Source of the DNA: Candidatus Pacebacteria bacterium UBA6180 | GTDB lineage: Bacteria > Patescibacteriota > Microgenomatia > UBA1400 > PJMF01 | DNA: 64,000 nt | Assembly: GCA_002422165.1 (NCBI GenBank) | Contig: DITQ01000001.1 | Span: 71,919-135,918, forward strand | Reading direction: 5' to 3' | Shown: positions 29,397 through 63,771 of the stretch, piece by piece | Layout of the letters: the number at the start of each line of letters is the position of its first letter | Numbering within the stretch: the first letter of the stretch is position 1 | Program-made: the position numbers and the translations under genes | The notes under the pieces: generated by a model | The model's input: the letters and a program-made list of their open reading frames with translations, nothing else | Told to the model about the DNA's origin: nothing | Databases searched by the model: none

Positions 29397-29405
29397 AGGG
29401 GTATT

Positions 29406-45021: not shown

Positions 45022-45027
45022 ACAATT

Positions 45028-46563: not shown

Positions 46564-46640
46564 GCTTCGATTCTCACAGCTAGTGCTTGAGTTAACTCGC
46601 TTGACGGCGGGGAGCATGGGATGAAGTTGGAACTTTTTTC
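46564..46640 (+). repeat. Intergenic repeat element, copy 2 (about 76 nt)
   Basis: GCTTCGATTCTCACAGCTAGTGCTTGAGTTAACTCGCTTGACGGCGGGGAGCATGGGATGAAGTTGGAACTTTTTT. Confidence 0.8.
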
Positions 46641-46671
46641 GCTCGATAAATTAAGGCTTATAAATTAGTAA

Positions 46672-46992
46672 TTAGCTTATTTCGATATTGTTAACTTCCT
46701 CAGGATAGAAATCAGTGCGCCCATCTTCATGTTTGAGAATTAATACTCCACATGGCCTTCCATATTCTATACGAGTTACTCTTAGATAATTATCATCATT
46801 AATTTTCACAGTTATTTCTTTCCCTTGAGAAGGAGCATATTGCAGGTAATGACTGCTTTTAAAATTTTCTGGCCACTCACCACCTATGAGAAGACCTTTT
46901 TTCATAGCAGTTAAAATTTCTCTTCTAATGCGATTCACTCCTAATTTAGCTGCTTCTAAGTTTTCCTCAGAAAAGTATTCATTTTCATTCAT
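46672..46992 (-). CDS. Hypothetical protein (106 aa)
   Basis: ORF only. The first gene inside the AT-rich segment. Confidence 0.4.
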   Translation of the reverse strand: MNENEYFSEENLEAAKLGVNRIRREILTAMKKGLLIGGEWPENFKSSHYLQYAPSQGKEITVKINDDNYLRVTRIEYGRPCGVLILKHEDGRTDFYPEEVNNIEIS

Positions 46993-47226
46993 AAAACTAT
47001 AATATCACTACTATCAATTAAAGTTAGATTTGAAGATATCAGAAGTGCTTTAATCATCCCTATGGTTTCTTTTGCGGAGCACCTGGGTCTGGAACCCGTG
47101 CGTCGTTATAACTGTCCCATTCCAGAATCGAGATTCCAGGGTAATTTTAGCAAAAATGGGACAAATGGGACACTATAAAAAGGGTGTGTCTTGTTTTTGT
47201 TAATGATGTATTTTGATATATTAATA

Positions 47227-48777
47227 TCAAATCCAACCTTGAGCACTACTGTACATGATAAGAGAGAACATTCTTGCTATTATCTCTCCCGAGAGATTAA
47301 AAATATTGTGATTTTGAAACTCAAAATTATGGCCTGTAAAGTTTCTAACACATGTAGTAATTCTAGCGTTAGCGAAATTCACATCTGTGGTATTAGATAC
47401 AGCGCTGTTAATTTTTGTTTCTAATTCAGTTAAACTGCTTGCAGCCGTATATTCACCTCTAGTTGAATTAATTGGTGTACTAAAAAGTGTTTGCAGCATA
47501 TCGCCAAGAGTCCCACTTAGACTTGAATTCTTTCTTTTCAGCTCATCTTCATACCACAGCGCAAGTTCAGATAGAGATCTTAAAATTTCACCTCTGTTCA
47601 CAGGATTACTCAGCTCAGAATTCAAGCTATAGGAAAAAGAAAACCGATAGAGAGTTATGAATAAAAGAATTTTCTTTTCAGGCGAAAGTGATAAAACATA
47701 TGATTTAAAATCACCTTCTGATAAAGTCGTTGAAAAAACTTGAATATTCTTACTAAGAATGTCTTGGAAGAAGTTCGATATCTGTATATTTTCAAATTGG
47801 GTATATAGATCACTGGTTGGCAAATCTTTCTCTGGATCTATGGTGACTCCAGATAAATGGGCTAAACAACTCCTATCATTATCGTAAGCCTTATAAAGAT
47901 TAAATAACCCTTCTATCACTTTCCCCTGGGCTAGTTGGGAAACACCTAAATTTGCCAGTGAAATGCCTCTGTTTACATTTTTATTATCAGTTTTATTAAA
48001 GTTAACAATCTCACTATCAATATTTGCCCAATAACTTTCTGACACACCATATAATCCACGATTTAGTAGCCAAGTTCCCATCATCTGAGTGTAGCCATCA
48101 ATCGGCTTATTCTTGTCCTCATAAGTATTAATTTCGAAGTCCGATACCTTCATTTGACTTAAACGTTCTCTAAGGCCGATTCTTCCGAGCTCAACCAGGT
48201 AGGCGATATCTCGATGAACTCTGTCAACAATATCACCGCCATTTCCAGGAGTTGTTGCTAATAAGTCATACTTTGAGTCAAATTCAGTAGTGTCAGTTGG
48301 GAGTTCAGACAACTTCTTCACAGCCACTTCAGAATCTGAAATCAACTTTTTTATTTCATCTAAACTACTTTGAAATTTGCCTTCTAATGCAGATGCATTA
48401 AATAGTAGCGGAACAGTAAAAATTAAATCGAAACTTCCCAAAATGCCACTTGGCATTACTTTGAATAGATAATCATTCTGCACTGATAAAGAAGTTGGTT
48501 TCGTGTTGAATAAAAAGTAGTAGGCTAAGACAACATTTGGAATAGGATCTCTATCAGGAATTAAATTTCTGCATCTTTTTGCTAAAAATAGGAATTCACT
48601 TCTTAAAAAATCTGCTTTCCTTAATCCCTCTTTGATCCAGTTCGTATATTGCTCAGAGTTGTTATCTGTAAACCCTTGCTGTGGGATACCAAATCTGTGT
48701 CTATATTCTCGCACTAACAAAATAAACATTGGGTGATTTACAAGGCTCTCAAAAGAGAGATTTATTTTGTCGTACAT
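47227..48777 (-). CDS. Hypothetical protein (516 aa), 4th gene of an AT-rich four-gene operon
   Basis: Overlaps the upstream gene by 16 nt. No recognisable motif. Very AT-rich. Confidence 0.5.
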   Translation of the reverse strand: MYDKINLSFESLVNHPMFILLVREYRHRFGIPQQGFTDNNSEQYTNWIKEGLRKADFLRSEFLFLAKRCRNLIPDRDPIPNVVLAYYFLFNTKPTSLSVQNDYLFKVMPSGILGSFDLIFTVPLLFNASALEGKFQSSLDEIKKLISDSEVAVKKLSELPTDTTEFDSKYDLLATTPGNGGDIVDRVHRDIAYLVELGRIGLRERLSQMKVSDFEINTYEDKNKPIDGYTQMMGTWLLNRGLYGVSESYWANIDSEIVNFNKTDNKNVNRGISLANLGVSQLAQGKVIEGLFNLYKAYDNDRSCLAHLSGVTIDPEKDLPTSDLYTQFENIQISNFFQDILSKNIQVFSTTLSEGDFKSYVLSLSPEKKILLFITLYRFSFSYSLNSELSNPVNRGEILRSLSELALWYEDELKRKNSSLSGTLGDMLQTLFSTPINSTRGEYTAASSLTELETKINSAVSNTTDVNFANARITTCVRNFTGHNFEFQNHNIFNLSGEIIARMFSLIMYSSAQGWI

Positions 48778-49961
48778 ATTCTTATCCTTATCATTTTTCT
48801 CCCCATCACATCTGGGTTCTTAGGTAAAATAGTGGCCTCTACTATATTTTCAATAGAAATCTTGTATTCTTTGGCAAAATGTTTCTTTAAGTTTTGAATA
48901 AGTTTGGTTTTATTTGTTTCTATAGTGTGATAATACAGTTGATTTCTAAATGTAGATCCAAATTGGTCAATCTCATAAACCTCAATTAATGATCCTTCGG
49001 TTCTGTTTTCCTCTGGGTCAAAGACCTCAATGGTGTACACACTTTTCTTATACTTATAATATTTCAGCAGGATACTTGGAGATACATTGTCAAAAGAAGC
49101 TCCTGTGTACCAAGTATTGCCTGGTAAAGGGAATTGGTTGGGATAAGTCTCCGATCGGTCAAAATTAGCTGGATGAGCTACATCACCAAAAGTCGATCTT
49201 TCATCCCAAAATCTTTTTATAACATTTTTTTCATCATCATCTATTTCAATTTTGGAAGCAACCTCTTCAAGTCTATCTTTGAACTTAGGTTTATTCGATA
49301 GAGAGTTCACAATAATTTCTATCGATTTGAAGTGGTCAAGAGCTCTTTTCTCATCACTATCAAAAATTAAGTATCCCATTGATGCTCTGTAAAGATATTT
49401 CAAAGCTCTTTCAAATATTGCATCACGAAATTCTAGTGAATCATTCAAAAAAGTTTCTGTTAGTTCACTCATCCATTGATTTCTTTCGGGACGATCAGGT
49501 AAATATATATGACCACTCTCCAGTTTGAAATCGACTTCTGATTCATTTCCTTCCTCATCTAAAGAATAAATCTTATTAACTTGATAAATGTATGGTTGAA
49601 AACTACCTCTGTTTTCACCGTGTTTCAGTTTCAGATCTTTAAGATTTGCCAGAGATAAAAACCGTGCCACTCTATCGATTGCACGAATTGCTCCACCTAC
49701 GGCTGATCTAGTATTTTCTTCTTCAATGTCATAGTAAATGACATACTCAGATTTAATTTTTATGGGGTCAAAATATGGTAAAGATGTAACATAAGTCTTG
49801 TGAAAGTTGTTTACATCAGAATCGGAAAACACACTTTTGATTGGGGCGAAGTTCCTTTTTTCTTGCTCTTCAAAAGTCATTTTCCTTATAAAGCACTTTT
49901 CAATCTCTCTTTCTGAGAGAGTCTGACCATGGATTAGTGCATAAATTCTATATTTACTCAT
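48762..49961 (-). CDS. Hypothetical protein (399 aa), 3rd gene of the operon
   Basis: Overlaps neighbours on both sides. Contains RFWDERSTFGDVAH, which is HEPN-like (R-x7-H) but not canonical. Confidence 0.5.
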   Translation of the reverse strand: MSKYRIYALIHGQTLSEREIEKCFIRKMTFEEQEKRNFAPIKSVFSDSDVNNFHKTYVTSLPYFDPIKIKSEYVIYYDIEEENTRSAVGGAIRAIDRVARFLSLANLKDLKLKHGENRGSFQPYIYQVNKIYSLDEEGNESEVDFKLESGHIYLPDRPERNQWMSELTETFLNDSLEFRDAIFERALKYLYRASMGYLIFDSDEKRALDHFKSIEIIVNSLSNKPKFKDRLEEVASKIEIDDDEKNVIKRFWDERSTFGDVAHPANFDRSETYPNQFPLPGNTWYTGASFDNVSPSILLKYYKYKKSVYTIEVFDPEENRTEGSLIEVYEIDQFGSTFRNQLYYHTIETNKTKLIQNLKKHFAKEYKISIENIVEATILPKNPDVMGRKMIRIRICTTK

Positions 49962-51747
49962 GATTTTTAAAATAGGCTGTAAATTTTTCTACTAGTAATT
50001 TGTATAAAAAATCAAATAAAGGAGTATCTGAATATATCAAGTCACATTCTCCTTCAGTCCAGGTACTAACTTTATATTTATTTCCTCGCAACTCAACCTG
50101 ATTAAAATTAGAGTTTTTCAAAAGCAACTTTTCATCTTCTGTAAGCTCCACAACTCTCGTTGTTTTTGTATGATTTATTCCCTCCAAATAGAAAGTGTGT
50201 AGTTTAGGAATATCAAATCCTTTATATACATCTTTGGTTTCGATTGAAAATGCTATGACTTCTGGAAGACTTAATTCTTTTGCTAAAGATGGAAAATTAT
50301 TAAGTACAACTTGGTTGTAAGCTTCAACAAGTGATGATTGAAAGACATGGAAGTTGTTAGCAACATCCTCTTTTGAGAGGGTATTCCAGATTAAGTTAGA
50401 TTCTAACTTTGAAAGTCTCTCAAAACTTTTTCTAATATATGGTCTTTTAATCTCACCTGTTTGATTTTTAAGGTAAGTTAGTAGCTCAACGAAAATACCA
50501 AAAGGAAATTTTTCATTACCAACTAGTATCCTTGGTAGAGATTTGTCTTTCTTTGAGAGTGTAGTTATTGTTAGCCTATTTACCTTAGCTAGTTCTTCAG
50601 TATTTAATGAAGATAATACATCTGGATCAAGGTAACTCCTATTAGGAATATCGTTCTTCTTTATTAAGACCTTATATGCGTTTATTGTCCACCATGGTAG
50701 GAAATTATAAAAAGCAAACTCCACCTCTTCTAACGAATATTTATCTTTTTTATCTAAACCAAGCTGAATCTTGAACTTATCGACAAAGGCAAAAATGAAT
50801 TCTTTTGCTAGATCTTTGTTCCCAGCATGATTTAGCAACTTTTTATATAGAACATTTAATACTTTCTCACGAATAATATCTCTAGAATACTTTTTATGAT
50901 CTTTGAGTATTGGGTTTTGCGTACTAAAGCCTCTAAACTCCAAACCCTCATTTCTTAATTGCTCATGCAATGCTTTTGTTGCTTCTTTAATCTGGACGTC
51001 GTTTTTTGTGAGTGAAATTGGATATAGTGCATAAGATAAGTTATTTTGAGAAAACTCATAGTAAGTCAACCCAATTTTCCAAGCATCAGGATAATATATC
51101 CTTTTTACCAACTTAAACTCATTTTCCAATAGGCTATTTAGCTCATCTAAGAACAAATGAATAAATTCATACCTTTCGTCAATTGCTCCCAATGCCGGTG
51201 TAATTGTTTCAGAAATAAGTGCATATGCATTCTTATATTTTTCAAACTCTTCAGCTTTATACCTATACAAATCAATTATTTTCGACCATTCATCAATAAA
51301 TTCTTTGCTACCATTTTTTATAACTTTTAATTTATCAAAATGAATTGTTTTACTAGTTCCTAGATTATCTACAAAACTTTTATCAATCTGAATCCAATAA
51401 GCCTCTTTTGGATCATCAAGTCTGACCCCAATGAGAATTTTCGGTATCCAATTATTGGAGTCTTTACAATAAGACAAAAATTTATCATCGTTAAAGCTAT
51501 ATTTGGGGGGATTAATATTTTTTGAAGGCAACTTTTTGATCTGAACTTCAAGCTTCCCAATTGGAAAGCCTTCTTTGTCAGTTACCTCAATATAACCATC
51601 AATATTAGGCCAAGTATCATTTGATTTAATATCTGGCATTGCTCTTTGAGTTTCTGACAGCCAGGCACTAACATAACTTACAGCTTGTTGGTCAAAAAAA
51701 CTTGTTTTGAAATGTTTTGCTGATTTTGACTTTTTTCCTTTAGACAT
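49954..51747 (-). CDS. Hypothetical protein (597 aa) with an N-terminal DUF4365-like PD-(D/E)xK motif, 2nd gene of the operon
   Basis: WPNIDGYIEVTDKEGFPIGKLEVQIKK gives a D-G-x-I-E...V-Q-I-K pattern typical of DUF4365/REase-like folds. Family assignment is from memory. Confidence 0.5.
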   Translation of the reverse strand: MSKGKKSKSAKHFKTSFFDQQAVSYVSAWLSETQRAMPDIKSNDTWPNIDGYIEVTDKEGFPIGKLEVQIKKLPSKNINPPKYSFNDDKFLSYCKDSNNWIPKILIGVRLDDPKEAYWIQIDKSFVDNLGTSKTIHFDKLKVIKNGSKEFIDEWSKIIDLYRYKAEEFEKYKNAYALISETITPALGAIDERYEFIHLFLDELNSLLENEFKLVKRIYYPDAWKIGLTYYEFSQNNLSYALYPISLTKNDVQIKEATKALHEQLRNEGLEFRGFSTQNPILKDHKKYSRDIIREKVLNVLYKKLLNHAGNKDLAKEFIFAFVDKFKIQLGLDKKDKYSLEEVEFAFYNFLPWWTINAYKVLIKKNDIPNRSYLDPDVLSSLNTEELAKVNRLTITTLSKKDKSLPRILVGNEKFPFGIFVELLTYLKNQTGEIKRPYIRKSFERLSKLESNLIWNTLSKEDVANNFHVFQSSLVEAYNQVVLNNFPSLAKELSLPEVIAFSIETKDVYKGFDIPKLHTFYLEGINHTKTTRVVELTEDEKLLLKNSNFNQVELRGNKYKVSTWTEGECDLIYSDTPLFDFLYKLLVEKFTAYFKNHE

Positions 51748-51776
51748 ATTTGTTCATATTAATTATAGCTTTGATT

Positions 51777-53387
51777 TTATTGTATATTTCCTGAAAACCC
51801 CTCATTCTCACTCACCAAAAAAATCGTCCAGTAAACATACCCGCTGGCATCTTTTAAATCTCTTCCAGTCAGAACACCTTCCCGTCTCAATTTTTTGATC
51901 GATGATGGTTTTACGCCTCGTTTTTCAACGTCATATTTATCAAAATGTTCTTTCTCCCACCACTCCTTATCCAGATCAAGCACAGGGACCACACCTTCCT
52001 GGATATTTCTCCAGCAATCACGGCATCTCAAGCCATCTGGCCGCCACCAAATGTCCTCACCGTTGTGGGATCTTCTGCAAATTCCACAAGTGTAACCTCT
52101 ACCACCATCATTGAGAAAGAAACCATTTGGTTCATCTTTTAGCCTGCGAGTCCTAATACGTTTGGTTGCAATGTATTCAGCGTCCATTCTGGCTAGCTGT
52201 ACGAGGTTGTGGTGTTCATATTTAGCTCTGAAATCTGGATCAAGCTTGGATTTAGGCTTCTTTGGTTCTTCTTTACCAAACAGCTTAAGCAAGTCGTCTT
52301 CTGATTCATATCCTTTGAGCTTGCCACTGAGAAATCCCAACCGATAACTCATCAGGTCTTTCGGTGCTCGCCAGTTGGTGTCCTTGAGTGTTGTTTTCAG
52401 TAAGTCGTATAAATCAGAGATGCTTTCTCGGTCACGTCGCTTAGGCTTAGTTTCTTGAAGAGTAAATGGCACTAATACGTGACGATCCATATTAGGCTCA
52501 CCAATAGATAGGCGGGTAAAACCACTTTCTTCAAGTGCTTTATTGATCAAAGTTTCTAGGTCTGTGATGGCGATTTTATTTACCGATAACAGCTTTTCAT
52601 GAGCTGGCGTATCGAGTTCAGCGAGAACTTCCTCTTTTACTTCATGAGCAACCTCCAGAGCTTCAAGCGTTTCTACATATTCTTTGCCTTTTTCATCAGA
52701 TAAACAAAACTCTGCTCGATACTTCACCAATAGTTGTTTGTCTTCTAGCTCTTCTTTTGCATGTTCTTCCTGCCACTTTTTATGCTCCTCATCGCTTTTC
52801 TTCAGATCCCAAATCTCTTTATTTGAGTAGCCACAGTTTTTGCACTTGTAGCGGGTGGTAATGACCTCATCTTTCTTACTACTTTTTCTCTCTAGCTTTT
52901 GTTTGCAGTCAGGACAAAAGTCAGACTTAGAAACATAGATCTCGCCATCGTCATACGCACCTTGTCGCTTTTTACATTTTGGACAGTTGAAGGTGAATAG
53001 CACCCTCATGGGTTTACCATCATCCCAATCAACTAAGTGGTGAGAACCATCGTCAGTCATAGCACTCCCACATTCAGGGCAATTGGCTCTGGGAGCTGGA
53101 GTATTGTCTTGCTTGTCCTGTTTAAGGCGATCAGACTCAAGCCACTCAGCGATAGTTGAAGCTCTGTGTTTGTGTCTTTGAGCTTGGATGAGAAAGAGCA
53201 TCCTGCCTCTGAGCAATCCCATGTTTCGTTCTTGTTCAGATTCTGGGTAATTTTGGAACTTTGGTTCCTGTTTCATTTTCTCGCCAATAGAATTGACCAT
53301 CTCCAAAGTCTTCAGACACTCTCTGATAGTGCCAACATCGTAGCGATCTTCATACTCTTGTTGTGGTTTTAGGTATTGAAACGACAT
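51777..53387 (-). CDS. Multi-zinc-ribbon protein (536 aa), 1st gene of the operon
   Basis: Three CxxC...CxxC pairs: CPECGS...CPKCKK, CPDCKQ...CKNCGY, CGICRR...CRDCWR. No NTPase motif. Somewhat higher GC than the downstream genes. Confidence 0.5.
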   Translation of the reverse strand: MSFQYLKPQQEYEDRYDVGTIRECLKTLEMVNSIGEKMKQEPKFQNYPESEQERNMGLLRGRMLFLIQAQRHKHRASTIAEWLESDRLKQDKQDNTPAPRANCPECGSAMTDDGSHHLVDWDDGKPMRVLFTFNCPKCKKRQGAYDDGEIYVSKSDFCPDCKQKLERKSSKKDEVITTRYKCKNCGYSNKEIWDLKKSDEEHKKWQEEHAKEELEDKQLLVKYRAEFCLSDEKGKEYVETLEALEVAHEVKEEVLAELDTPAHEKLLSVNKIAITDLETLINKALEESGFTRLSIGEPNMDRHVLVPFTLQETKPKRRDRESISDLYDLLKTTLKDTNWRAPKDLMSYRLGFLSGKLKGYESEDDLLKLFGKEEPKKPKSKLDPDFRAKYEHHNLVQLARMDAEYIATKRIRTRRLKDEPNGFFLNDGGRGYTCGICRRSHNGEDIWWRPDGLRCRDCWRNIQEGVVPVLDLDKEWWEKEHFDKYDVEKRGVKPSSIKKLRREGVLTGRDLKDASGYVYWTIFLVSENEGFSGNIQ

Positions 53388-56733: not shown

Positions 56734-56735
56734 AG

Positions 56736-57482: not shown

Positions 57483-57493
57483 GAACTTACAAT

Positions 57494-58129
57494 TTAAAAC
57501 TGTCCATCTAGAATATTTTCAACGCAGAGCTCATGCAGGTATGCCTCATCATTCTTCTCGATGAGCTGATAATAGATTCTTGCTTTGTGTGCTTCGTAAC
57601 CATTAATAACTATTTCAGAGACAGAATTACCTTTTATTGAATCAAGATATCTTTGATTATCTGATTTAGGGTTCAGAACGAGTAGATTGCTATTCAAATT
57701 AAATGACAAACCTTCACTAACTTGATGATCTATTGATGGTTCGTATATAACAATGCCACCTGAGATTGCATCAACAATAGCAAATCCCTGACATTCGGTA
57801 CCACATCCCCAAGTTGCTACAGTGTAATGTCCTGCAAAGTTTGGACCATCAGCTGATTGGTGCATTATGGTAGTGCTAAATAACTTCGCTTCAGGAAATG
57901 AATCAAAATTAACTGAGGCTGGTTTTTCTGAGAAAATCTCAACAGCTGAACTGTCTACTTTTGAGAGTACTTCGTCGCAAACAGAAATAGAACTTAATTT
58001 TGAAGATACAATCTGACTTTCGATTCCAACAAATTTTGAATATTTTGCTCCAAAATAAAATGATATTATTGTGGCTAAAATTAATAATAAGCAACTTCTA
58101 ATAATTTTCATAATAAGTAATAGAAACAT
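57494..58129 (-). CDS. Hypothetical secreted/membrane-anchored protein (211 aa)
   Basis: N-terminal hydrophobic signal or anchor. Its ATG immediately follows the stop of the WYL gene. Confidence 0.45.
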   Translation of the reverse strand: MFLLLIMKIIRSCLLLILATIISFYFGAKYSKFVGIESQIVSSKLSSISVCDEVLSKVDSSAVEIFSEKPASVNFDSFPEAKLFSTTIMHQSADGPNFAGHYTVATWGCGTECQGFAIVDAISGGIVIYEPSIDHQVSEGLSFNLNSNLLVLNPKSDNQRYLDSIKGNSVSEIVINGYEAHKARIYYQLIEKNDEAYLHELCVENILDGQF

Positions 58130-58789
58130 TTAGTAATATTTTCTAAAATTCTTAGCATTTTCTATTTGTGAATCTGACTTATTTATGTAATCATAATTAA
58201 CAGAAAAATTTTCACCCAACTTAATGTTCTTCATTCTATCTAACCTAAACGTTCTCAAGTCATTTCTATAGGTACAATAGGCAACACAATAAGTGCTGTT
58301 TACGTTATATGGATGAATTGTTCTGCTAAAGCCCTTGTAGTTGATTGTGGCTTCCCTGTGCTCTTTGACAGCTATTGCAATGATTTCCTGATTTGTTTGA
58401 CCACTGACTTTAGTGGAATTCTTTTCCTTTATTTTTTCGTCTCTAAGTCTCCAAAGAAAAGTACTATCAATTTCGCACTGATCCTTTAAAGATCCATATA
58501 AAAGACTGTTTACAATAGATCTCTCTAAGCCAAGTTTAGATGCTATATCTTTGGCTTTAATACCATCACTTTCCTCAATTATTTTCAAAACCCTTGTCTT
58601 CAATGAAACTTTTGTCTTGTTAGCCAGACCACTTTGGCTTAATGGGTGCCACCCATAATTTTCATCCTTGTAACAACGTCCTTTGAGTTTTTCAATTAAG
58701 ATGTTGTAAGTAATTAAGTAATTTTGAAAAGCCTTTTTCGCAATTTCTTGACCAGTTAGTCCAGGATAGTTGCTTACTATTTCAAGCAC
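58130..58789 (-). CDS. wHTH-WYL domain regulator module; GTG start with an open upstream frame through a Zn ribbon (possible C-terminal module of the helicase)
   Basis: Two HTH-like segments and a WYL-domain signature ...IHPYNVNSTYCVAYCTYRNDLRTFRLDRMKNIKL. There is no ATG start, and the frame is stop-free for 116 codons upstream. Confidence 0.55.
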   Translation of the reverse strand: MLEIVSNYPGLTGQEIAKKAFQNYLITYNILIEKLKGRCYKDENYGWHPLSQSGLANKTKVSLKTRVLKIIEESDGIKAKDIASKLGLERSIVNSLLYGSLKDQCEIDSTFLWRLRDEKIKEKNSTKVSGQTNQEIIAIAVKEHREATINYKGFSRTIHPYNVNSTYCVAYCTYRNDLRTFRLDRMKNIKLGENFSVNYDYINKSDSQIENAKNFRKYY

Positions 58790-59088
58790 AACCTCCTCTG
58801 GAGTTTTTGAATACTCAGTGCCTTTGTTGTTTTTTACACCTGATTTTCCATCTGAATTAGCTATTGGTTCTTGTCTCTTAAAATACTTATTTCTGTATTT
58901 ATTTAATTCGTCAAAGCTGAGACTAGATCTAAATTTATGAAGCCTCGTGTGTCTGTCTTCTTCATAACAAAATAAGCAAAAGTCTATATTCTTGAATGGG
59001 AAAGCATAACTTGCATAAATATTTTCACATTTTTCACAAGTTCTATCTTCTTTATTAATCAGTTTTTCTATCTGTCTATGGAAATCTT

Positions 59089-62000
59089 CTAAAACATCAG
59101 GGTTTTTGACTTTTTTTTTACGATGTTGGTTAATCGTTCATCAAGAGTTTGGATAGGATCTTTGCCAATATTAAACTTATTAATCCTTAAGAATTTATAA
59201 CCATAACCTTCAAGAACCTTCTGCCTATAAATGTCGTTTTCATTCATGTAATACTCATAATTATATTGATCAACGTCGGATATATTTTCGCTAAAGTGTT
59301 CTTTGAAACCATCGTATTCAATAATAATCTTCTCGTCTTTATACATTAATAAAAAGTCAACTTTATATTTAGGATGAATATAGTTGCCATCAAGTTGCTG
59401 GAGATAATCACCTAATGGAAACTGAGGTTTGAGCTCAATGAATTCTTTGTTTTGTTTGTAAAAATTTGTTTGTTCAAAATAATGTTTTATTTTATCTTCC
59501 ATCGGGGAGTTTGGATCAGTTTGTCCAAGAGTTTTACCTCTTCCAACTTCTAATTCATTTTTATAGTGAAGAAGTGCATTCTTAATCTCTCCTTTAAATT
59601 CTTCTGGTTGTTTACTCAAAATGAAGTGCATGCAATTTTTTGCACGACTAAAACCAACATTAAGTCTTTGAGATTTAACTGTTCCGTCAACCTCATCACT
59701 CAGTTTTGCTAAATCGATGGGAAAAATCCAATTAAGCCTGTCCTTTTCTTTAGTGGCAACCATTGAATAGAAAATACAATCTCTTTCTTCTCCCTGACAT
59801 GTGTCAAATGTCATGATTTTTAGTTTACATTTGCCAAAAAGCCAATCTCTTTCTTGAAGTTCGTTAATTTTGTCAAATAAGAGAGTCACTTGCTCACGAT
59901 GTGGAGTAATTATTCCAAGAGTCTGTTCTGTGCCAGCATCATGAAACTTCTTTAATTGTTTGATAATATGATTTACTTCCATCTCGTTTGTATTTTTTAA
60001 TTCATCAAATTTACCATCATGATCAATAACATCAAACTTTATAACATCATCAATGGGAACACCCCTTACTTTCATGCATTGGAGCGAATCAGCGTAGAAA
60101 TATTTATCTGAAAATGAAATAATTTCTGGATAGCATCTAAAATGTTTTTTTAATTGGCATTCATAGTTTCTTATGAATCTCATGAACTTTAAAATTGAAT
60201 TTTTAACATCAAAGTTTTCTTGTACTTTGGTTAACCAACCATAGTTTGATTCTTCTTTACCTTTCTCCAATAGAAAAGCTTCTTGAACTTTCTTCTTCAG
60301 TTCTTGATTCGTAACTTTGCTAGCATTATTAGCTTTAACATTGGAAAACTGCTTATCATCACCTAAAACAACGATTTGTTTTCCTCTTATTAGTGCAGGT
60401 AAAGATTGAGCAATGCTTACTTGTGAAGCCTCATCAATGATAATTAAGTCAAACAAATCTTTCTCAAGTGGAATATACTCAGCATAATCTCTAATTCCAG
60501 CCAATATGCAGGGAAAAGCTTTTTTTAGATTTCTGAATAATTCTTTAGGGAATTTCTGTTTTTTTCTTAATATATTTTTGAGAGTATTGACGTCACCAGC
60601 AAAGCTACTTGTGTACTCGATGATTCGTTTATCTAAGAAGTAAGTCATTTGAGCAGTAACAAGATGTTCAATTGTTGTAACTCCCTCTGAGTAGAAACCA
60701 TTTTCTTGAATTCCGAATTGGTCTTCAAGTTTTCGCTCTATTTCCTTATATTCAAGATAAGTATTAATTTCTTCTTCTGAATGTTTCTCGATCTCACTGT
60801 TAATGTCTTTGAGATAATTAAAATCACTGTGCAATTTAATCTGATCTGACAGTTTAGGATATTTGTTTCTGAAATCTTTAACAAATTGAATATCATCAAA
60901 TAGTTCTAGTACTTTCTTGAAATCTGCAATTATTGTTTCAACTCTTTGAATAGAGGCGTCAAAATTTTGTGTAGTTAACTTTTCTACATCAATTTCAACA
61001 CCAAGAGTATTTAAGAAACTAATTTGCAAGTCGTAGTTATTCACCTCGTTTATAAGGTTCACGACCTCAATTGCTAACTCAGTTTGCCTTAGTTCTTCTA
61101 AATTCTTAATTGCATAGTCAGGATAATCTTCACAAAAACCAATCAGTTTTTTGCTTGACTTAGCCAAACTGGTTGGGAAATTTAGGTCCATATCTTGTTG
61201 TAAACAATTAAATATAAATTTGAATTCTTCGTCCCCTAATGAGTTATTAGCGATTTTTTCGTTTAAAATTTCCAGAACGTTTAGCACTTCCAAGATTCGT
61301 TGAAAGTTTTTATCTGGATTTTCAATGTTGAAATAGTGGAAGCTTTTTTTAATTGATCTTGTTAAATCATTGACTTGGTTTCCACTTAGCAAAAATCCAA
61401 TCAAAGGCTTCTTTAATTTTTGAAGGTTTATGCAATATTGTTTCAGCTCAGAAAGTGACTCTTTAACAGATTGTTCTTTTGGGACCACAAAATTTGCCAA
61501 AAAGTCTTTATCTCGTAAATTACTACTAAGAATACGATCAGATTCGTTATAGATGCCCCTAAGTAATTCATATTTGCTTACATTATCTTGTAGTTTCTGA
61601 ATATTATCTTTATGATCAAATTTTAGTGCTTCCTCATTAATTGTGATCTCTATTAAACTTTGCATCTCTTCTAGAACATCACTTATTGTTTTTGAAAAAT
61701 TAAGTAACCATTTTTTATTTTGATTTTTAAGCTCTGAGTATGAAAACTTAGAAGATAATTTTTCTTTTGAGGTCTTGATTCCGATCAATAAATCATACAA
61801 ATCTTTAAGTTTTTCTAAATTTTCTTCTGATACATTCTCTAGTGAAATTCGAATTTTATAGTTCTCCGTAATTTTTTCAATCGATGTTTTTAGGCTGGGT
61901 AAATCAGTGCTTAGATCAGAGAGATTTTCTGAGGAAATCCAATTGATTTTTTCAAAATTTTCAGCATGATGAAAGTAATATTCAATGTCCTTGATTGAGA

Positions 62001-63771
62001 TGCCTTCAAAATAATTAATATTATCTTTTATATTGTTTTTTAAGTTATTTACAGCTTCAGTTCTGATCTGATCGTACTCATCTTTTCTTGCCTTATAAGC
62101 CTGATAGTGTTCTCGAATTTTTTGAATAGTTTGACCTTGAACAATTTTATAGAATTTATTGCCAGACTTTCCCAGTCTTAAAATTGGATTTTGAAAATCA
62201 TCTTCGTGCCTAATTTTGTTAAGTGTTTGAGAAATCTTATCTTCAACAACATCCAACGCTTCTTTTTTATCAGATAAAACCAATACAGACTTTTCTTCTA
62301 GTAATGCCTTACAAATAACAGCGGTAATTGTATGACTTTTCCCAGTTCCAGGTGGTCCTTCCAATACTAGAAATTTACAGTCTGGCTTTTCAAGAGCCAT
62401 CAGCACTTGTTTCTGTTCGTCGTTAAGTGGAATTGGACTATCAAATACAAGTTTGTTGGGTATTTCTTTTTCTAGCCATTCATCATCTATTTCTAAAGTA
62501 AAATCTTTCGGATTTTCTTCTATGAAACTCTTCAACAGTTCATCAAACTTAGCGAGCAACAATCCTTTATCATTTAATATTTCTTCATAATCATTAATGA
62601 GTGACTCATCAGACTTATCAAATAAATAAAAGTAGGATTTGTTTGATAATGAAGCAATTAAATTAATTCCTTTTTGTGGAGCTGAGTCTTGAATATTAAT
62701 GTTTCTGTTTAATTCAAAGAAGTTCTCAATCTTCTTAATTGTTGACTCTAGTTGTCCTTGAAAGTTTTCGTGCTCATTAAGATATATTATTCTTTCAAAC
62801 TCACCAGCTAAGGTTGCTTGTCTTTTAACTTGTAGGTTGTACTCTTGAACAACGAATTCAACTGCTTTCGTATTGATGAAAATTCTGCTATCAAACTTCA
62901 GGATAAAATTGTTATCTTGTTTTTCGATAGATAGGGGTAGATAAAAAACTGGAAACTTCTCATTGCCAAGCGAAATTTCATAAAAATAAAGATAAAGCTC
63001 AGTTTTGTCTATTAATTTATTATTTCTAAACAACTGATAGAAATCATAAAATGCGTCACTGACTGCAAAATTATGAAAGAAATTTAATAGATTACCTTTT
63101 ATTTCAGATAATATTATTGATTTCTTTAACTCCTTTTTTATATCGAACGACTTAAGATCCTGAGAATAGTTCTGTAATAGATCATGAAGGCTGGCTTCAA
63201 AGGAAGAAAATAACGCATCAACAATGTCAACTTCTAGTTGGTATTTGCTATTTTCATCGGCAAGCTCTAGGTTTTCTAATGGTTTATCTAGCTCATCTAA
63301 AAAAGGAAGAATAAGCTTCTTTGCGACTAACTTCTTTGTCCCTTCTTTCGTCTCCTCAAGAAACTTGTCGTGCTCCTTTTTAAATAGGAGGTAGTTTTCT
63401 TGAACCAATGCTTCAATATCTTGGAATAAATCTTTGAGATCATCTTGTTTTAGTTGATCAATTTTCTTTGAAATAAGTTCAATGAGCGAGCTTGGAATAT
63501 TGGTAGTGTAAGCTCCTTTTTTCAATAAAAATTCCTCTTTTGGAAAACCTTTATTTAGGGAACCTATTAGGAACTTTTTTAATGAGTCATACTTATCTAA
63601 ATCAATAGCTACCTTTAAGCCATTCTGAACCTTTTGAATAGTGTTTCTTTTGGGAATTCTTCTTTTTTTAAAATCAGTTTCCAAGAAATTCATGAAGTAC
63701 TTAGCCACCTCTTTAACAAAAGAGGAGACTTGATGATCTTGTTTATTTTGGTTTTCACCTGAATCACTCAC
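59089..63771 (-). CDS. SF1B (Upf1/AAA_11-AAA_12-like) helicase with a C-terminal DUF559/Vsr-like endonuclease domain (Hhe-like architecture)
   Basis: Walker A LVLEGPPGTGKSH, motif II IIDEASQ, VLGDDKQ, motif VI-like TCQGEERD. C-terminal IIIEYDGFKEH...GYKFLRINKF matches the DUF559/REase pattern. N-terminal 450 aa are unknown. Confidence 0.7.
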   Translation of the reverse strand: MSDSGENQNKQDHQVSSFVKEVAKYFMNFLETDFKKRRIPKRNTIQKVQNGLKVAIDLDKYDSLKKFLIGSLNKGFPKEEFLLKKGAYTTNIPSSLIELISKKIDQLKQDDLKDLFQDIEALVQENYLLFKKEHDKFLEETKEGTKKLVAKKLILPFLDELDKPLENLELADENSKYQLEVDIVDALFSSFEASLHDLLQNYSQDLKSFDIKKELKKSIILSEIKGNLLNFFHNFAVSDAFYDFYQLFRNNKLIDKTELYLYFYEISLGNEKFPVFYLPLSIEKQDNNFILKFDSRIFINTKAVEFVVQEYNLQVKRQATLAGEFERIIYLNEHENFQGQLESTIKKIENFFELNRNINIQDSAPQKGINLIASLSNKSYFYLFDKSDESLINDYEEILNDKGLLLAKFDELLKSFIEENPKDFTLEIDDEWLEKEIPNKLVFDSPIPLNDEQKQVLMALEKPDCKFLVLEGPPGTGKSHTITAVICKALLEEKSVLVLSDKKEALDVVEDKISQTLNKIRHEDDFQNPILRLGKSGNKFYKIVQGQTIQKIREHYQAYKARKDEYDQIRTEAVNNLKNNIKDNINYFEGISIKDIEYYFHHAENFEKINWISSENLSDLSTDLPSLKTSIEKITENYKIRISLENVSEENLEKLKDLYDLLIGIKTSKEKLSSKFSYSELKNQNKKWLLNFSKTISDVLEEMQSLIEITINEEALKFDHKDNIQKLQDNVSKYELLRGIYNESDRILSSNLRDKDFLANFVVPKEQSVKESLSELKQYCINLQKLKKPLIGFLLSGNQVNDLTRSIKKSFHYFNIENPDKNFQRILEVLNVLEILNEKIANNSLGDEEFKFIFNCLQQDMDLNFPTSLAKSSKKLIGFCEDYPDYAIKNLEELRQTELAIEVVNLINEVNNYDLQISFLNTLGVEIDVEKLTTQNFDASIQRVETIIADFKKVLELFDDIQFVKDFRNKYPKLSDQIKLHSDFNYLKDINSEIEKHSEEEINTYLEYKEIERKLEDQFGIQENGFYSEGVTTIEHLVTAQMTYFLDKRIIEYTSSFAGDVNTLKNILRKKQKFPKELFRNLKKAFPCILAGIRDYAEYIPLEKDLFDLIIIDEASQVSIAQSLPALIRGKQIVVLGDDKQFSNVKANNASKVTNQELKKKVQEAFLLEKGKEESNYGWLTKVQENFDVKNSILKFMRFIRNYECQLKKHFRCYPEIISFSDKYFYADSLQCMKVRGVPIDDVIKFDVIDHDGKFDELKNTNEMEVNHIIKQLKKFHDAGTEQTLGIITPHREQVTLLFDKINELQERDWLFGKCKLKIMTFDTCQGEERDCIFYSMVATKEKDRLNWIFPIDLAKLSDEVDGTVKSQRLNVGFSRAKNCMHFILSKQPEEFKGEIKNALLHYKNELEVGRGKTLGQTDPNSPMEDKIKHYFEQTNFYKQNKEFIELKPQFPLGDYLQQLDGNYIHPKYKVDFLLMYKDEKIIIEYDGFKEHFSENISDVDQYNYEYYMNENDIYRQKVLEGYGYKFLRINKFNIGKDPIQTLDERLTNIVKKKSKTLMF

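What the first reader, a model, noticed from the sequence alone, without database searches (positions are those of the whole stretch)
46564..63771. About 17 kb AT-rich accessory island packed with nuclease, helicase and Zn-ribbon genes and no mobility genes
From about 46.6 kb to the Hhe-like gene, nearly every gene is AT-rich relative to the left 46 kb and encodes unknown, nuclease-like, Zn-ribbon or WYL functions. No integrase or transposase is visible. The left edge coincides with copy 2 of the 76-nt repeat element (46564-46640). Structured intergenic DNA with GTCCCAT...ATGGGACA AATGGGACA repeats lies at 47114-47172. The right boundary lies beyond the window at 64000. The organisation resembles a defence island.
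Basis: partly seen in the sequence, partly recalled or inferred. Interest (0 to 1): 0.6.

Follow-up and report, generated by a model that had tools for sequence, protein, structure and literature searches.

The report
Defence-gene cargo of a tRNA-Ser mobile element
The AT-rich stretch is real, but it is the variable cargo half of a roughly 26-kb mobile element inserted at a serine tRNA gene in a probable ultra-small (CPR/Patescibacteria) bacterium; its recombinase lies just past the window's end, and related elements carry known anti-phage systems in the same slot.

Summary
The compositional observation holds. GC is 0.347 for 46564-63771, against at least 0.415 for any equal-sized window to the left, and GC3 is 0.30 against 0.45. 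The gene content is roughly as described.

The claim of no mobility genes is an artefact of the window end. An identical metagenome contig continues 9.45 kb further. It carries ParB-methyltransferase, methyltransferase, small and large terminase, and a large serine recombinase.

The same 8-nt core, TTGCGGAG, sits at both ends (window 47072-47079 and 9.45 kb past the window end). The left end carries a conserved pseudo-tRNA arm. The right end runs into a tRNA-Ser-like 3' end.

Among 64 related recombinase loci, 56 have a tRNA just downstream, and 41 of those are tRNA-Ser. Nearly all named genomes are Patescibacteria.

The methyltransferase-terminase-recombinase backbone recurs in 44-45 of 79 genomes and 64 of 80 IMG/VR contigs. 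No capsid genes were found.

The window's AT-rich part is the variable cargo slot. In relatives this slot holds type I/III/IIG restriction-modification, Shedu and SMODS genes. Here it holds:
- a WYL-linked helicase-nuclease (PDC-S37/Hhe-like);
- a DUF4365/DREN-like nuclease protein;
- a CPR-specific gene pair with no known fold.

Defence function is inferred, not shown.

The parts
46564..46638 (.). Copy 2 of a 75-nt repeat family. Other copies are at 20865-20939 and, degenerate, at 21447-21515. It lies outside the element, about 430 nt left of the att core.
   Evidence: It is not found at the ends of related elements; nhmmer against 79 loci gave one weak hit.
46672..46992 (-). 106-aa AT-rich ORF (GC 0.34, GC3 0.22) with no family match. 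It sits between the 75-nt repeat and the att core, outside the present element.
47072..47079 (.). Left junction core TTGCGGAG (CTCCGCAA in tRNA orientation). It is identical to the core at the right junction, 9.45 kb beyond the window end.
   Evidence: A megahit contig of an independent assembly starts exactly at 47074 and overlaps the chromosomal contig by k = 141.
47074..47105 (-). Pseudo-tRNA 3' fragment GACGCACGGGTTCCAGACCCAGGTGCTCCGC (T-arm-like plus acceptor-like). Compare the real tRNA-Ser(GCT) end CCTGGGTTCGAATCCCAGTGCCTCCGC.
   Evidence: GGGTTCCAGAC is invariant in 11 aligned units from other genomes.
47074..47223 (-). Conserved 'left unit', the element-side att arm. It consists of block 1 (AAAAACAAGACAC.CCCTTTTTATAGTGTCCCATTTGTCCCATTT), a variable spacer, and the pseudo-tRNA block.
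   Evidence: Paired units occur in 9 other loci, at 83-93% identity in L013, L056 and L073.
47227..48777 (-). A516: a 516-aa all-alpha protein of a Patescibacteria-only family. It has no Pfam, NCBIfam, PADLOC or PHROG match and no fold match. R478-N-x3-H483 is invariant.
48762..49961 (-). B399: a 399-aa protein and the conserved upstream partner of A516 (16-nt overlap). It has at least 163 homologues, mostly from CPR. R255/H263 are invariant.
49954..51747 (-). C597: a 597-aa protein with an N-terminal DUF4365/DREN-like PD-(D/E)XK nuclease domain and a long uncharacterised C-terminal part.
   Evidence: Its neighbours elsewhere vary.
51777..53387 (-). D536: a 536-aa multi-Zn-ribbon protein and the first gene of the D-C-B-A operon. 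It recurs in the cargo slot of related elements.
53459..55312 (+). 617-aa membrane protein: multi-TM N-terminus, signal peptidase S26 domain and CAP domain.
   Evidence: It is 96% identical in L059.
55309..56733 (+). 474-aa DUF2779 protein. Its N-terminal part is weakly Cas4/RecB-like.
   Evidence: It is 91% identical in L059 and 29-40% identical in IMG/VR loci.
56682..57482 (+). 266-aa protein with a CxxC...CxxC Zn-ribbon and no family match.
57494..58129 (-). 211-aa protein with an N-terminal hydrophobic segment and no family match. It abuts the WYL gene.
58130..58789 (-). 219-aa winged-helix (MarR-like) + WYL domain protein, a candidate ligand-sensing regulator. It lies downstream of the helicase on the same strand.
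59089..63771 (-). 1560-aa Upf1-like SF1 helicase (AAA_11/AAA_12) with a roughly 440-aa unknown N-terminus and a C-terminal Vsr/DUF559-type endonuclease-like domain. The best match is PADLOC candidate PDC-S37.
63874..64000 (+). Start of the conserved element backbone. DNA similarity to the related element L004 begins here. The backbone continues beyond the window: ParB-MTase, MTase, TerS, TerL, XRE, a 378-aa PD-(D/E)XK-like protein, a 136-aa protein, DUF7638/7639, an 80-aa protein, the large serine recombinase and DUF2726.

Best explanation
Window 47072-64000 is the distal, variable 'cargo arm' of an integrative mobile element of about 26.4 kb. The element runs from window 47072 to about 9.45 kb past the window end.

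Integration. The element was inserted by its own large serine recombinase into the extreme 3' end of a tRNA-Ser gene. The crossover lies within CTCCGCAA, which is the last five tRNA bases plus three bases downstream. The tRNA-proximal end carries the recombinase. The distal end, inside the window, carries an element-borne arm that mimics the tRNA T-arm and acceptor.

Backbone. ParB-methyltransferase, methyltransferase, small terminase, large terminase, an 80-aa protein (possible directionality factor) and the recombinase form a backbone. It is shared by a large family of elements in Patescibacteria and has no capsid, portal, tail or lysis genes. The inference is that the element excises, is cut and packaged by its own terminase into a helper phage's capsids (satellite-like), and is methylated against restriction.

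Cargo. The AT-rich genes in the window occupy a hotspot for exchangeable cargo. In related elements this hotspot holds restriction-modification, Shedu and SMODS genes. Here it most likely holds anti-phage functions:
- a helicase-nuclease, possibly controlled by the adjacent WYL regulator;
- a DREN-like nuclease protein;
- a two-gene module (B399-A516) whose conserved R...H motifs suggest RNase-type toxins.

Shown: composition, gene content, continuation of the sequence, identical att core, conserved end units, tRNA association in relatives, backbone/cargo partition, defence content of the slot in relatives.

Inferred: the intact tRNA next to this copy, excision, packaging, the methylation role, and any defence activity.
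For: Continuation and mobility genes:
- Contig ERZ27315062:k141_343330 is 100% identical to window 49089-64000 and extends 9454 nt further.
- The extension encodes a large serine recombinase with Resolvase, Recombinase and Zn_ribbon_recom domains (PHROG integrase, 1.6e-63). It also encodes TerL (phrog_38, 2.8e-72), TerS, and two N6/N4 methyltransferases, one of them fused to ParB_N.

Ends:
- The core TTGCGGAG is identical at both junctions.
- The left unit is conserved in other genomes at the far end of their cargo.
- The right unit abuts tRNA-Ser in relatives. Our contig's first 9 nt, TCACCTCCG, align with the tRNA-Ser(TGA) 3' end of L008.

tRNA association:
- Of 64 related loci with enough downstream sequence, the first tRNA within 5 kb of the recombinase always faces it.
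- It is tRNA-Ser in 41 loci, tRNA-Glu in 12, another tRNA in 3, and absent in 8.
- All 12 relatives at 70% identity or more have tRNA-Ser.

Backbone against cargo:
- ParB-MTase, MTase, TerS and TerL occur in 44-45 of 79 genome loci and in 58-64 of 80 IMG/VR loci. Cargo genes are rarely shared.
- DNA similarity to L004 starts at position 63874.
- The TerL Walker A, Walker B and nuclease acidic residues are invariant across 30 sequences, down to 29% identity.

Mobility of the cargo:
- L059 has the S26-CAP protein, the DUF2779 protein, the WYL protein and the helicase at 83-96% identity. They sit next to a recombinase only 57% identical to ours.
- The helicase's 90% cluster has 13 members, while 8 chromosomal proteins are singletons.
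- An independent assembly breaks with k-mer overlaps exactly at the left core.

Defence context:
- A census of 86 cargo ORFs from 34 related loci found N6_Mtase 13, HsdM_N 10, HsdS 8, ResIII 8, Eco57I 6, HSDR_N 4, SduA_C 3, SMODS 2 and PLDc_2 2.
- A second slot, between TerL and the recombinase, holds a type III Mod in L133.
- The B-A pair is terminal cargo beside a type ISP restriction enzyme and Mrr in L097. In L095 it sits beside type I RM and an AAA_15/21 ATPase.
- The helicase matches PDC-S37 at 7e-47 and MkoA at 7e-41.
- C597 matches DUF4365 and DREN-APAZ.

No phage structural family was found in the cargo or among the listed (25 most frequent of 59) families of the census.
Against: - The intact tRNA next to this copy was not seen. 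The only contig that continues past the window stops 9 nt into the tRNA-like end. The 145-kb NCBI contig could not be fetched, and the metagenome scan found no identical copy.
- No empty site or circular junction was observed, so excision competence is unproven.
- No replication module was recognised in the element.
- No complete known defence system is present in the window. All cargo assignments are weak domain hits or association.
- Two cargo genes (D536 and the DUF2779 gene) have host-like GC.
- The S26-CAP membrane protein has no obvious defence role.
- The block B399-A516 + left unit also occurs at 90.5% identity in another genome with no element backbone within 7-8 kb. The simple one-element model does not explain this.
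- Host assignment to Patescibacteria rests on relatives' names. Many related MAG records carry the title 'uncultured Pseudomonadales/Gammaproteobacteria'.
Confidence: 0.8

Rival explanations
1. Decayed prophage remnant. The terminase, methyltransferases and recombinase are what is left of a once-complete temperate phage. The element no longer moves, and the AT-rich genes are later insertions or morons.
For: TerL, TerS, ParB-MTase and a serine integrase are typical phage genes. IMG/VR classifies many relatives as viral. No replication or structural genes were found in this copy.
Against: The same capsid-less gene order, ParB-MTase - MTase - TerS - TerL - (80 aa) - recombinase, recurs in 44-45 of 79 genomes and most of 80 IMG/VR contigs, down to about 30% protein identity. 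The ORFs are intact and the TerL catalytic residues are invariant. A complete bounded element of only 9.5 kb exists in L013. Independent decay would not give one conserved minimal architecture.
Confidence: 0.25
2. Static chromosomal defence island. In this view it is a non-mobile accessory region built up by piecemeal gene gain, bounded on the left by the 75-nt repeat.
For: No mobility gene lies inside the window part. The AT-rich composition begins near the repeat at 46564.
Against: The recombinase and terminase lie just beyond the window on identical DNA. An identical 8-nt core and conserved end units bound a 26.4-kb segment. The repeat is not found at the ends of related elements.
Confidence: 0.04
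3. Assembly chimera. The left unit is a repeat shared by several elements in the community, so the assembler may have joined this chromosome to the wrong element's cargo.
For: An independent megahit assembly of the same population breaks at both ends of the element with k = 141 overlaps. This shows that the end units occur in more than one context in that sample. The genome is a MAG.
Against: The window is contiguous across the junction. Protein look-ups place island proteins on a 145-kb NCBI contig, which is much longer than the element. The junction has exactly the structure expected of an att site: a pseudo-tRNA arm, then the core, then non-element DNA. A close relative (L005, 74-85% protein identity over most syntenic genes, 45-66% for two) carries an element with a 97%-identical recombinase at its tRNA-Ser(GCT).
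Confidence: 0.07
4. The cargo is not defence. The AT-rich genes serve the element itself (replication, regulation, exclusion of competing elements) or the cell envelope (S26 peptidase-CAP, 211-aa protein).
For: No complete known defence system was detected. D536 recurs next to the backbone in about 10% of elements, like an element function. B399-A516 is repeatedly the last gene pair before the att arm. S26/CAP proteins are envelope proteins.
Against: The same slot in relatives is dominated by restriction-modification and other established defence genes. The helicase-nuclease matches defence-candidate models strongly. The C597 family sits beside HEPN (ApeA, AbiV), Schlafen-AlbA and KwaB-like genes elsewhere.
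Confidence: 0.25

Closest known systems
Phage satellites that carry defence cargo. Examples are Vibrio cholerae PLE, which uses a large serine recombinase (PMC6002521), and PICI and P4-like satellites with defence hotspots (the latter from my own knowledge).
   Same: It is a small integrative element with an integrase at one end. It has no capsid, tail or lysis genes. It carries its own packaging gene(s). It has exchangeable anti-phage cargo at fixed hotspots.
   Different: - It encodes both TerS and TerL, plus two DNA methyltransferases, as the conserved core.
- No replication module or helper-sensing gene was recognised.
- It targets tRNA genes with a serine (not tyrosine) recombinase.
- The host range appears to be Patescibacteria.
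- Helper dependence is entirely inferred.
- The library searches run here found no paper describing such elements.
tRNA-integrated genomic islands and prophages (classically using tyrosine integrases)
   Same: It is inserted at the 3' end of a tRNA gene, with the integrase gene next to the tRNA. The far end carries a tRNA-like fragment. Tandem arrays and relics occur next to the tRNA.
   Different: The recombinase is a large serine recombinase. The identical core is only 8 nt. The tRNA-like fragment at the far end (GGGTTCCAGACCC T-arm) is element-borne and conserved between elements. It is not a duplicated piece of the host tRNA.
PADLOC candidate PDC-S37, and Hhe and Mokosh MkoA helicase-nucleases
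   Same: It is a single large protein with an Upf1-like SF1 helicase core and a C-terminal Vsr/DUF559-type endonuclease-like domain. It matches PDC-S37 at 7e-47 over 533-1395 and MkoA at 7e-41. A JGI record names a member of its 90% cluster 'very-short-patch-repair endonuclease'.
   Different: The Hhe model matches only the C-terminal helicase lobe (1086-1390, 1e-21). The N-terminal 440 residues match nothing. The endonuclease hits are below Pfam cut-offs (MTES_1575 20.2 bits against 38.2; DUF559 16.7 against 20.6). It is accompanied by a WYL regulator. PDC-S37 is itself only a computational candidate (my own knowledge).
DUF4365 / DREN nuclease domains of short-Argonaute partner proteins (DREN-APAZ, PDB 9jsb; DUF4365 protein 9qbq)
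   Same: The N-terminal roughly 75-100 residues of C597 match this PD-(D/E)XK nuclease domain. The evidence is a profile against PDB (E = 0.0067 and 0.035), PADLOC Aga_REase (2.3e-5), and PF14280 precomputed on most homologues.
   Different: There is no APAZ domain and no Argonaute nearby. The remaining 480 or so residues are uncharacterised. Neighbouring genes vary between genomes.

Membership tests
Integrative element using a large serine recombinase | A gene with Resolvase catalytic domain + Recombinase domain + zinc-ribbon domain lies at one end of the segment | tested here: met
   L001 673-1971 (432 aa): PF00239 1.3e-20, PF07508 1.2e-16, PF13408 1e-7; phrog_95 integrase 1.6e-63. It lies beyond the window on DNA identical to it.
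Integrative element using a large serine recombinase | A short identical core is present at both junctions (attL/attR) | tested here: met
   TTGCGGAG at window 47072-47079 and at the right junction 9.45 kb past the window end.
tRNA-targeting genomic island | One end abuts an intact tRNA gene | tested here: inconclusive
   The only extending contig ends 9 nt into a tRNA-Ser-like 3' end (TCACCTCCG). In relatives, 41 of 64 loci have tRNA-Ser and 12 have tRNA-Glu facing the recombinase.
tRNA-targeting genomic island | Present/absent polymorphism: an empty site is seen in relatives or in the population | tested here: inconclusive
   No empty site was recovered. Indirect support: the assembly graph branches at both ends. 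The close relative L005 has its element at a different tRNA-Ser.
Complete prophage | Portal, major capsid, tail and lysis genes | tested here: not met
   PHROG and Pfam scans gave no structural family for 20 of the 22 proteins of the 26.4-kb element (the helicase and the WYL protein were scanned with Pfam and PADLOC only; the 80-aa protein with Pfam only). None appeared among the listed (25 most frequent of 59) families of 86 cargo ORFs of relatives.
Phage satellite (PICI/PLE-like) | Integrase, own packaging function, lack of virion genes | tested here: met
   The recombinase, TerS and TerL are present and virion genes are absent. The architecture is conserved in 44-45 of 79 genome loci and in 58-64 of 80 viral-collection loci.
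Phage satellite (PICI/PLE-like) | Replication module, and helper-phage-dependent induction and packaging | not testable with these tools
   No primase or replication-initiator domain was detected. Induction and packaging need experiments or virome read data.
Defence island | A cluster of recognised defence systems | tested here: not met
   PADLOC HMMs find no complete known system in the window. They find only the candidate PDC-S37/MkoA/Hhe-like helicase, WYL, and weak REase and Cas4 hits.
Defence island | The locus is a hotspot that holds known defence systems in related genomes | tested here: met
   Type I, III and IIG restriction-modification, Shedu (SduA_C), SMODS and PLD genes occur among 86 cargo ORFs of 34 related elements. 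A type ISP enzyme and Mrr occur in L097. A KwaB-like gene occurs in L093.
Hhe (helicase + Vsr-type endonuclease single-gene defence) | Match to the family model over the whole protein | tested here: not met
   The Hhe HMM aligns only 1086-1390 (1e-21). PDC-S37 aligns 533-1395 (7e-47).
Hhe (helicase + Vsr-type endonuclease single-gene defence) | C-terminal Vsr/DUF559-type endonuclease domain | tested here: inconclusive
   MTES_1575 has E = 6.5e-4 (20.2 bits, cut-off 38.2). DUF559 has E = 7e-3 (16.7 bits, cut-off 20.6). A JGI record names a cluster member a Vsr endonuclease.
HEPN-domain RNase toxins (for A516 and B399) | Conserved R-x4-6-H motif | tested here: inconclusive
   In A516, R478-N-F-T-G-H483 is invariant in 31 sequences and fits the motif. 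In B399, R255 and H263 are invariant but spaced by 7 residues.
HEPN-domain RNase toxins (for A516 and B399) | HEPN four-helix fold, or profile similarity to a HEPN family | tested here: not met
DUF4365 / DREN nuclease (for C597) | N-terminal PD-(D/E)XK domain matching PF14280 | tested here: met
   PF14280 is precomputed on the query cluster and on most of the 78 homologues. It is listed as a weak hit. A profile against PDB hits 9qbq (0.0067) and DREN-APAZ (0.035). D50 and G51 are invariant.

The most novel reading that the evidence does not exclude
The window shows one member of an undescribed, very widespread family of capsid-less, terminase-encoding integrative elements (phage-satellite-like) specific to Patescibacteria. 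They insert at tRNA-Ser or tRNA-Glu genes through a large serine recombinase whose attP arm mimics a tRNA 3' end. They serve as the main exchange platform for anti-phage genes in these tiny genomes. The cargo includes new systems such as the B399-A516 pair and the D-C-B-A operon.
Probability: 0.35. Interest if true: 0.8.

Novelty: new variant of a known kind. Interest (0 to 1): 0.6.

Why it matters
Patescibacteria have genomes of about 1 Mb, are mostly uncultured epibionts, and are thought to be poor in known defence systems and mobile elements.

A single, easily recognised element family would give a concrete handle on how these organisms acquire and exchange immunity genes. Its signature is ParB-methyltransferase, methyltransferase, TerS, TerL and a serine recombinase next to a tRNA gene.
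- The IMG/VR scan found 370 terminase relatives.

The family would also give a defined hotspot in which to mine new defence genes.

A serine integrase with a compact, tRNA-based att site could interest genome engineers working on organisms that currently have no genetic tools.

For the finding as written, the practical lesson is that 'no mobility gene' was an edge-of-window effect.

Tried and rejected
- Extending past the element's right end. The metagenome scan with the DUF2726 protein found only relatives at 94% or less. The helicase look-up returned only 26-kb and 8-kb contigs. The intact tRNA was therefore not reached.
- The 75-nt repeat as island boundary. It is absent from the ends of related elements, and the att core lies 430 nt to its right. 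Rejected as the element edge.
- The left unit as a known RNA. Rfam finds nothing at gathering threshold in the window apart from two tRNAs and an AdoCbl riboswitch. Nothing credible was found around the joined unit in L013.
- D-C-B-A as one conserved four-gene system. Neighbours of C597 homologues differ in every context examined. L095 has D-B-A without C. B-A alone occurs in L096, L097 and L179. Only B-A is a fixed pair.
- A single-sequence TerL scan of IMG/VR found nothing. The alignment-based scan worked.
- Organism name.
- Literature. Six searches found no description of this element family, of CPR phage satellites, or of tRNA-Ser-targeting serine recombinases in CPR. PMC12455944 reports genomic islands and prophages in Patescibacteria only in general terms.

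Full report
**Observation**

A 2-kb sliding profile shows GC falling from about 0.42-0.48 over most of the first 46 kb to 0.30-0.40 from 46.5 kb to the window end.
- No 17.2-kb window inside the left part goes below 0.415.
- Pooled GC3 of the ten genes is 0.301 against 0.452 for 42 genes on the left (Mann-Whitney p = 4e-5).

The deviation is uneven.
- The 536-aa gene and the DUF2779 gene have GC 0.425-0.427.
- The left 46 kb has smaller AT-rich patches at 14.5-16.9, 19.9-21.4 and 37-41.8 kb.

The other sequence features are also present.
- The 75-nt repeat copy at 46564-46638 is 88% identical to 20865-20939. A third, degenerate copy lies at 21447-21515.
- The GTCCCAT / ATGGGACA AATGGGACA motifs are present at 47114-47177.

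**Gene content of the window part**

A co-directional, partly overlapping operon lies on the minus strand.
- D536 (51777-53387) has multiple Zn-ribbons and only sub-threshold Zn-ribbon hits.
- C597 (49954-51747) has an N-terminal DUF4365/DREN-type nuclease domain. The evidence is PADLOC Aga_REase 2.3e-5, a family profile against PDB 9qbq at 0.0067 and against DREN-APAZ at 0.035, and PF14280 precomputed on most homologues.
- B399 (48762-49961) and A516 (47227-48777) match nothing in Pfam, NCBIfam, PADLOC or PHROGs.

A second operon lies on the plus strand: a multi-TM signal-peptidase-S26 + CAP protein, a DUF2779 protein (weakly Cas4-like) and a 266-aa Zn-ribbon protein.

The minus strand then carries three more genes.
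- A 1560-aa Upf1-like SF1 helicase has a C-terminal Vsr/DUF559-like region. It matches PDC-S37 at 7e-47, MkoA at 7e-41 and Hhe at 1e-21, the last over the helicase lobe only.
- It is followed by a wHTH-WYL protein and a 211-aa protein.

No recombinase or transposase domain lies in this interval.

**What lies beyond the window**

An exact-protein look-up of the helicase returned ENA contig ERZ27315062:k141_343330 (26,381 bp). It is 100% identical to window 49089-64000 and runs 9,454 nt further.

That extension encodes, in order:
- a ParB_N-N6/N4 methyltransferase;
- a second methyltransferase;
- a small terminase;
- a large terminase (phrog_38, 2.8e-72);
- an XRE regulator;
- a 378-aa protein with a D...ExK motif;
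- a 136-aa membrane protein;
- a DUF7638/7639 protein;
- an 80-aa protein;
- a 432-aa large serine recombinase (Resolvase + Recombinase + Zn-ribbon; phrog_95 integrase, 1.6e-63);
- a convergent DUF2726 gene.

The statement 'no mobility genes' therefore reflects only where the window was cut.

**Ends of the element**

In the same ENA assembly, the 224.8-kb chromosomal contig ends at window 47214. The 26.4-kb contig starts at 47074. The overlap is exactly the assembler's k of 141. This means the end sequence occurs in more than one context in that sample.

The two junctions share the 8-nt core TTGCGGAG, at window 47072-47079 and 9.45 kb past the window end. Read in the tRNA's orientation they are:
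- right junction: ...TCAC-CTCCGCAA-CAGTTGAAAAGTTCTGATAGACCCGTC (element);
- left junction: (element) GACGCACGGGTTCCAGACCCAGGTG-CTCCGCAA-AAGAAACCATAGG (chromosome).

The left-junction arm imitates a tRNA T-arm and acceptor strand. For comparison, the window's own tRNA-Ser(GCT) ends CCTGGGTTCGAATCCCAGTGCCTCCG, followed by CAA.

**Relatives**

The named ones are almost all Patescibacteria: Woese-, Pace-, Shapiro-, Gottesman-, Roizman-, Beckwith- and Saccharibacteria. Many TPA records carry 'uncultured Pseudomonadales/Gammaproteobacteria' titles.

The end units are conserved in these relatives.
- The 150-nt left unit (47074-47223) recurs at 83-93% identity in L013, L056 and L073, and in part elsewhere.
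- The 135-nt right unit recurs in at least 15 loci.
- An alignment of 11 left units shows two conserved blocks separated by a variable spacer. Block 1 is AAAAACAAGACAC.CCCTTTTTATAGTGTCCCATTTGTCCCATTT. Block 2 is GTTATAACGACGCAyGGGTTCCAGACCC-N3-4-TGCTCCGCA.
- Because the pseudo-T-arm is conserved between elements and differs from real tRNA-Ser T-arms, it belongs to the element (attP-derived). It is not a displaced piece of host tRNA.

The right unit abuts a tRNA-Ser gene in relatives, and our contig's first nine bases align with the 3' end of L008's tRNA-Ser(TGA).

A local ARAGORN census covered 64 loci with at least 1.5 kb downstream of the recombinase.
- The first tRNA within 5 kb was always on the strand facing the recombinase.
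- It was tRNA-Ser in 41 loci, tRNA-Glu in 12, and Asp, Pro or Lys in one each. Eight loci had none.
- All twelve relatives at 70% identity or more have tRNA-Ser.

L013 shows a complete 9.5-kb element with the same two ends.

**Backbone and cargo**

tblastn of all island proteins against the 79 genome loci gave the following counts.
- ParB-MTase, MTase, TerS and TerL occur in 44-45 loci.
- XRE occurs in 37 loci and the 80-aa protein in 17.
- The window's cargo proteins occur in 0-4 loci each.

DNA similarity to L004 (recombinase 97% identical) starts at 63874, just right of the helicase start codon.

An alignment-based scan of IMG/VR with TerL found 370 relatives. Of the best 80 loci, 64 carry ParB-MTase, 58 carry TerS and 43 carry the recombinase in the same order.

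TerL ORFs are intact in 39 of the 40 loci examined (one, L020, has two in-frame stop codons). The Walker A (G-S-x-K-S-T), Walker B (D-D-x-E) and nuclease aspartates are invariant across the 30 sequences aligned, down to 29% identity.

No capsid, portal, tail or lysis family appeared in the element. None appeared among the listed (25 most frequent of 59) families of 86 cargo ORFs.

This is a conserved, capsid-less architecture rather than random prophage decay. I read it as satellite-like: excision by the recombinase, cutting and packaging by its own terminase into a helper's capsids, and methylation to evade restriction. These steps are inferred.

**Is the cargo 'defence'?**

Directly, only weakly. 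The helicase-nuclease with a WYL partner and the DREN-like protein resemble defence components, but no complete known system is present.

By context, strongly.
- The 86 ORFs of at least 150 aa upstream of ParB-MTase in 34 related loci include N6_Mtase (13), HsdM_N (10), HsdS (8), ResIII (8), Eco57I (6), SWI2/SNF2 (5), HSDR_N (4), Shedu SduA_C (3), SMODS (2) and PLD (2).
- A second slot, between TerL and the recombinase, carries a type III Mod in L133.

The cargo is also mobile in its own right.
- L059 has the S26-CAP protein, the DUF2779 protein, the WYL protein and the helicase at 83-96% identity. Its recombinase is only 57% identical to ours and no terminase module lies between.
- The helicase's 90%-identity cluster has 13 members on different contigs. 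Eight chromosomal proteins of the window are singletons.

**The unknown operon**

C597 belongs to a family of at least 78 full-length homologues at 26-47% identity. The family's neighbours change from genome to genome:
- ApeA-HEPN plus a 391-aa protein;
- AbiV-HEPN plus a 288-aa protein;
- a Schlafen/AlbA_2 protein;
- or, in L093, a KwaB-like gene, a D536-like gene and the ParB-MTase-TerS-TerL-recombinase backbone.

The B399-A516 pair is the only fixed unit.
- A516 has at least 66 homologues, all of 513-521 aa and 44-87% identical. All named ones are Patescibacteria.
- B399 has at least 163 homologues.
- The two are adjacent with the same 16-nt overlap in L095, L096, L097 and L179.
- L095 has D-B-A without C, next to type I restriction-modification and an AAA_15/21 ATPase.
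- L097 has B-A as the last cargo of the same element type, beside a type ISP enzyme and Mrr.

Structure prediction did not identify either protein.
- The AlphaFold model of A516 (pLDDT 84.6) is all-alpha with no significant match in PDB or BFVD.
- The model of B399 (pLDDT 77.4, pTM 0.79) has alpha/beta end domains around a helical bundle. It gives only non-significant HEPN hits.
- Invariant R478-N-x3-H483 in A516 and R255/H263 in B399 suggest HEPN-like RNase sites. This is a lead only.

**An observation the simple model does not explain**

A Logan contig (L179) shares 2,894 nt at 90.5% identity with window 49961-47070. That span runs exactly from the B399 start codon through A516 and the whole left unit. 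In L179 it sits among ordinary sugar-metabolism and NUDIX genes, with no backbone within 7-8 kb.

Several other loci show arrays of end units.
- L016 has three right units spaced 1.2-1.8 kb apart.
- L056 has two left units.
- In L013 a right-unit fragment is fused to the left unit.

These fit tandem insertions next to tRNA genes followed by decay. They could also mean that small cassettes travel with an att arm.

**Host**

The host is inferred to be a patescibacterium.
- Named relatives of the recombinase and of A516 and B399 are CPR lineages.
- L005 shares nine syntenic genes with window 21757-30845 (seven at 74-85% protein identity, two at 45-66%). It carries an element with a 97%-identical recombinase at its tRNA-Ser(GCT), the counterpart of the tRNA at window 21593-21678.

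**Verdict**

- The interpretation 'accessory, defence-like island' is right in spirit.
- The object is the cargo arm of a tRNA-Ser-integrated element with a serine recombinase and a terminase pair, from a large family in Patescibacteria.
- My literature searches did not find this family described.
- In concept it is a known kind: a satellite or island with defence hotspots. The novelty lies in the lineage, the backbone, the tRNA-mimicking serine-recombinase att site and the uncharacterised cargo families.

Noticed in passing
window 36995-41768: tRNA-Arg(CCG) at 36995-37067 is immediately followed by an AT-rich (GC 0.376, GC3 0.283) 1530-aa protein with a MutS domain V ATPase and a weak PADLOC mad3 hit. 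It looks like a second foreign, possibly defence-type gene next to a tRNA.
   Followed up: no
window 19906-21678: An AT-rich islet (GC 0.35) lies downstream of tRNA-Ser(GCT). A 116-aa ORF with GC3 0.17 is flanked by two copies of the 75-nt repeat (21447-21515 and 20865-20939), and a 309-aa low-GC gene is present. The tRNA's 3' end contains the same CTCCGCAA core. In the close relative L005 this tRNA carries a full element.
   Followed up: partly
window 14565-17023: Two AT-rich genes (GC 0.41 and 0.34) sit just upstream of an AdoCbl riboswitch at 16888-17023 (Rfam 53 bits). The riboswitch precedes a GC-rich 247-aa gene.
   Followed up: no
window 19351-19418: A perfect-register tandem duplication of a 34-nt unit (94% identical) lies at the end of the 456-aa gene and the start of the 142-aa gene.
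   Followed up: no
L179 7294-10186 (also L180): B399-A516 plus the complete left att unit occurs as a 2.9-kb block, 90.5% identical to window 49961-47070. It sits inside ordinary metabolic genes with no element backbone nearby.
   Followed up: partly
L016 4709-7867; L007; L056 17166-19625; L013 2205-2382: Several end units occur in series next to the tRNA. L016 has three right units 1.2-1.8 kb apart. L013 has a right-unit fragment fused to a left unit. This suggests tandem insertions and relics, or cassette-like accretion.
   Followed up: partly
L027-L048, L082 (recombinase 60-64% identical): A sub-group of the recombinase family has tRNA-Glu (CTC/TTC) in 12 loci, usually 180-192 nt downstream instead of tRNA-Ser, and tRNA-Lys in one. 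This is an apparent switch of target tRNA.
   Followed up: no
L064 3546-4932; L026 5317-7045: Homologues of the window's ArsR-thioredoxin-ArsP cluster (44701-46160, just outside the left junction) lie immediately downstream of related recombinases in two other genomes. The cluster may itself be, or have been, element cargo.
   Followed up: no
L103/L104 (IMGVR_UViG_3300032737_000190), L139/L140, L118/L129: Single IMG/VR contigs carry two copies of the ParB-MTase-TerS-TerL-recombinase module, 37.5, 28 and 16.8 kb apart. They are either tandem elements or concatemers. L104 also has a helicase 42-48% identical to the window's.
   Followed up: no
L004-L082 record titles: Dozens of TPA MAG records titled 'uncultured Pseudomonadales/Gammaproteobacteria bacterium' carry this CPR-type element. 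One of them (L005) is syntenic with the window. The titles look like placeholders or mislabels.
   Followed up: no
B399 residues 238-263 and L088 6770-7945 residues 235-260: B399 reads FWDERSTFGDVAH. The unrelated-looking 391-aa neighbour of a C597 homologue reads YWRGTRSIQSH. Both carry a similar W-x-x-R-S...H stretch at the same position in proteins of the same length. The hhalign result is not significant.
   Followed up: partly
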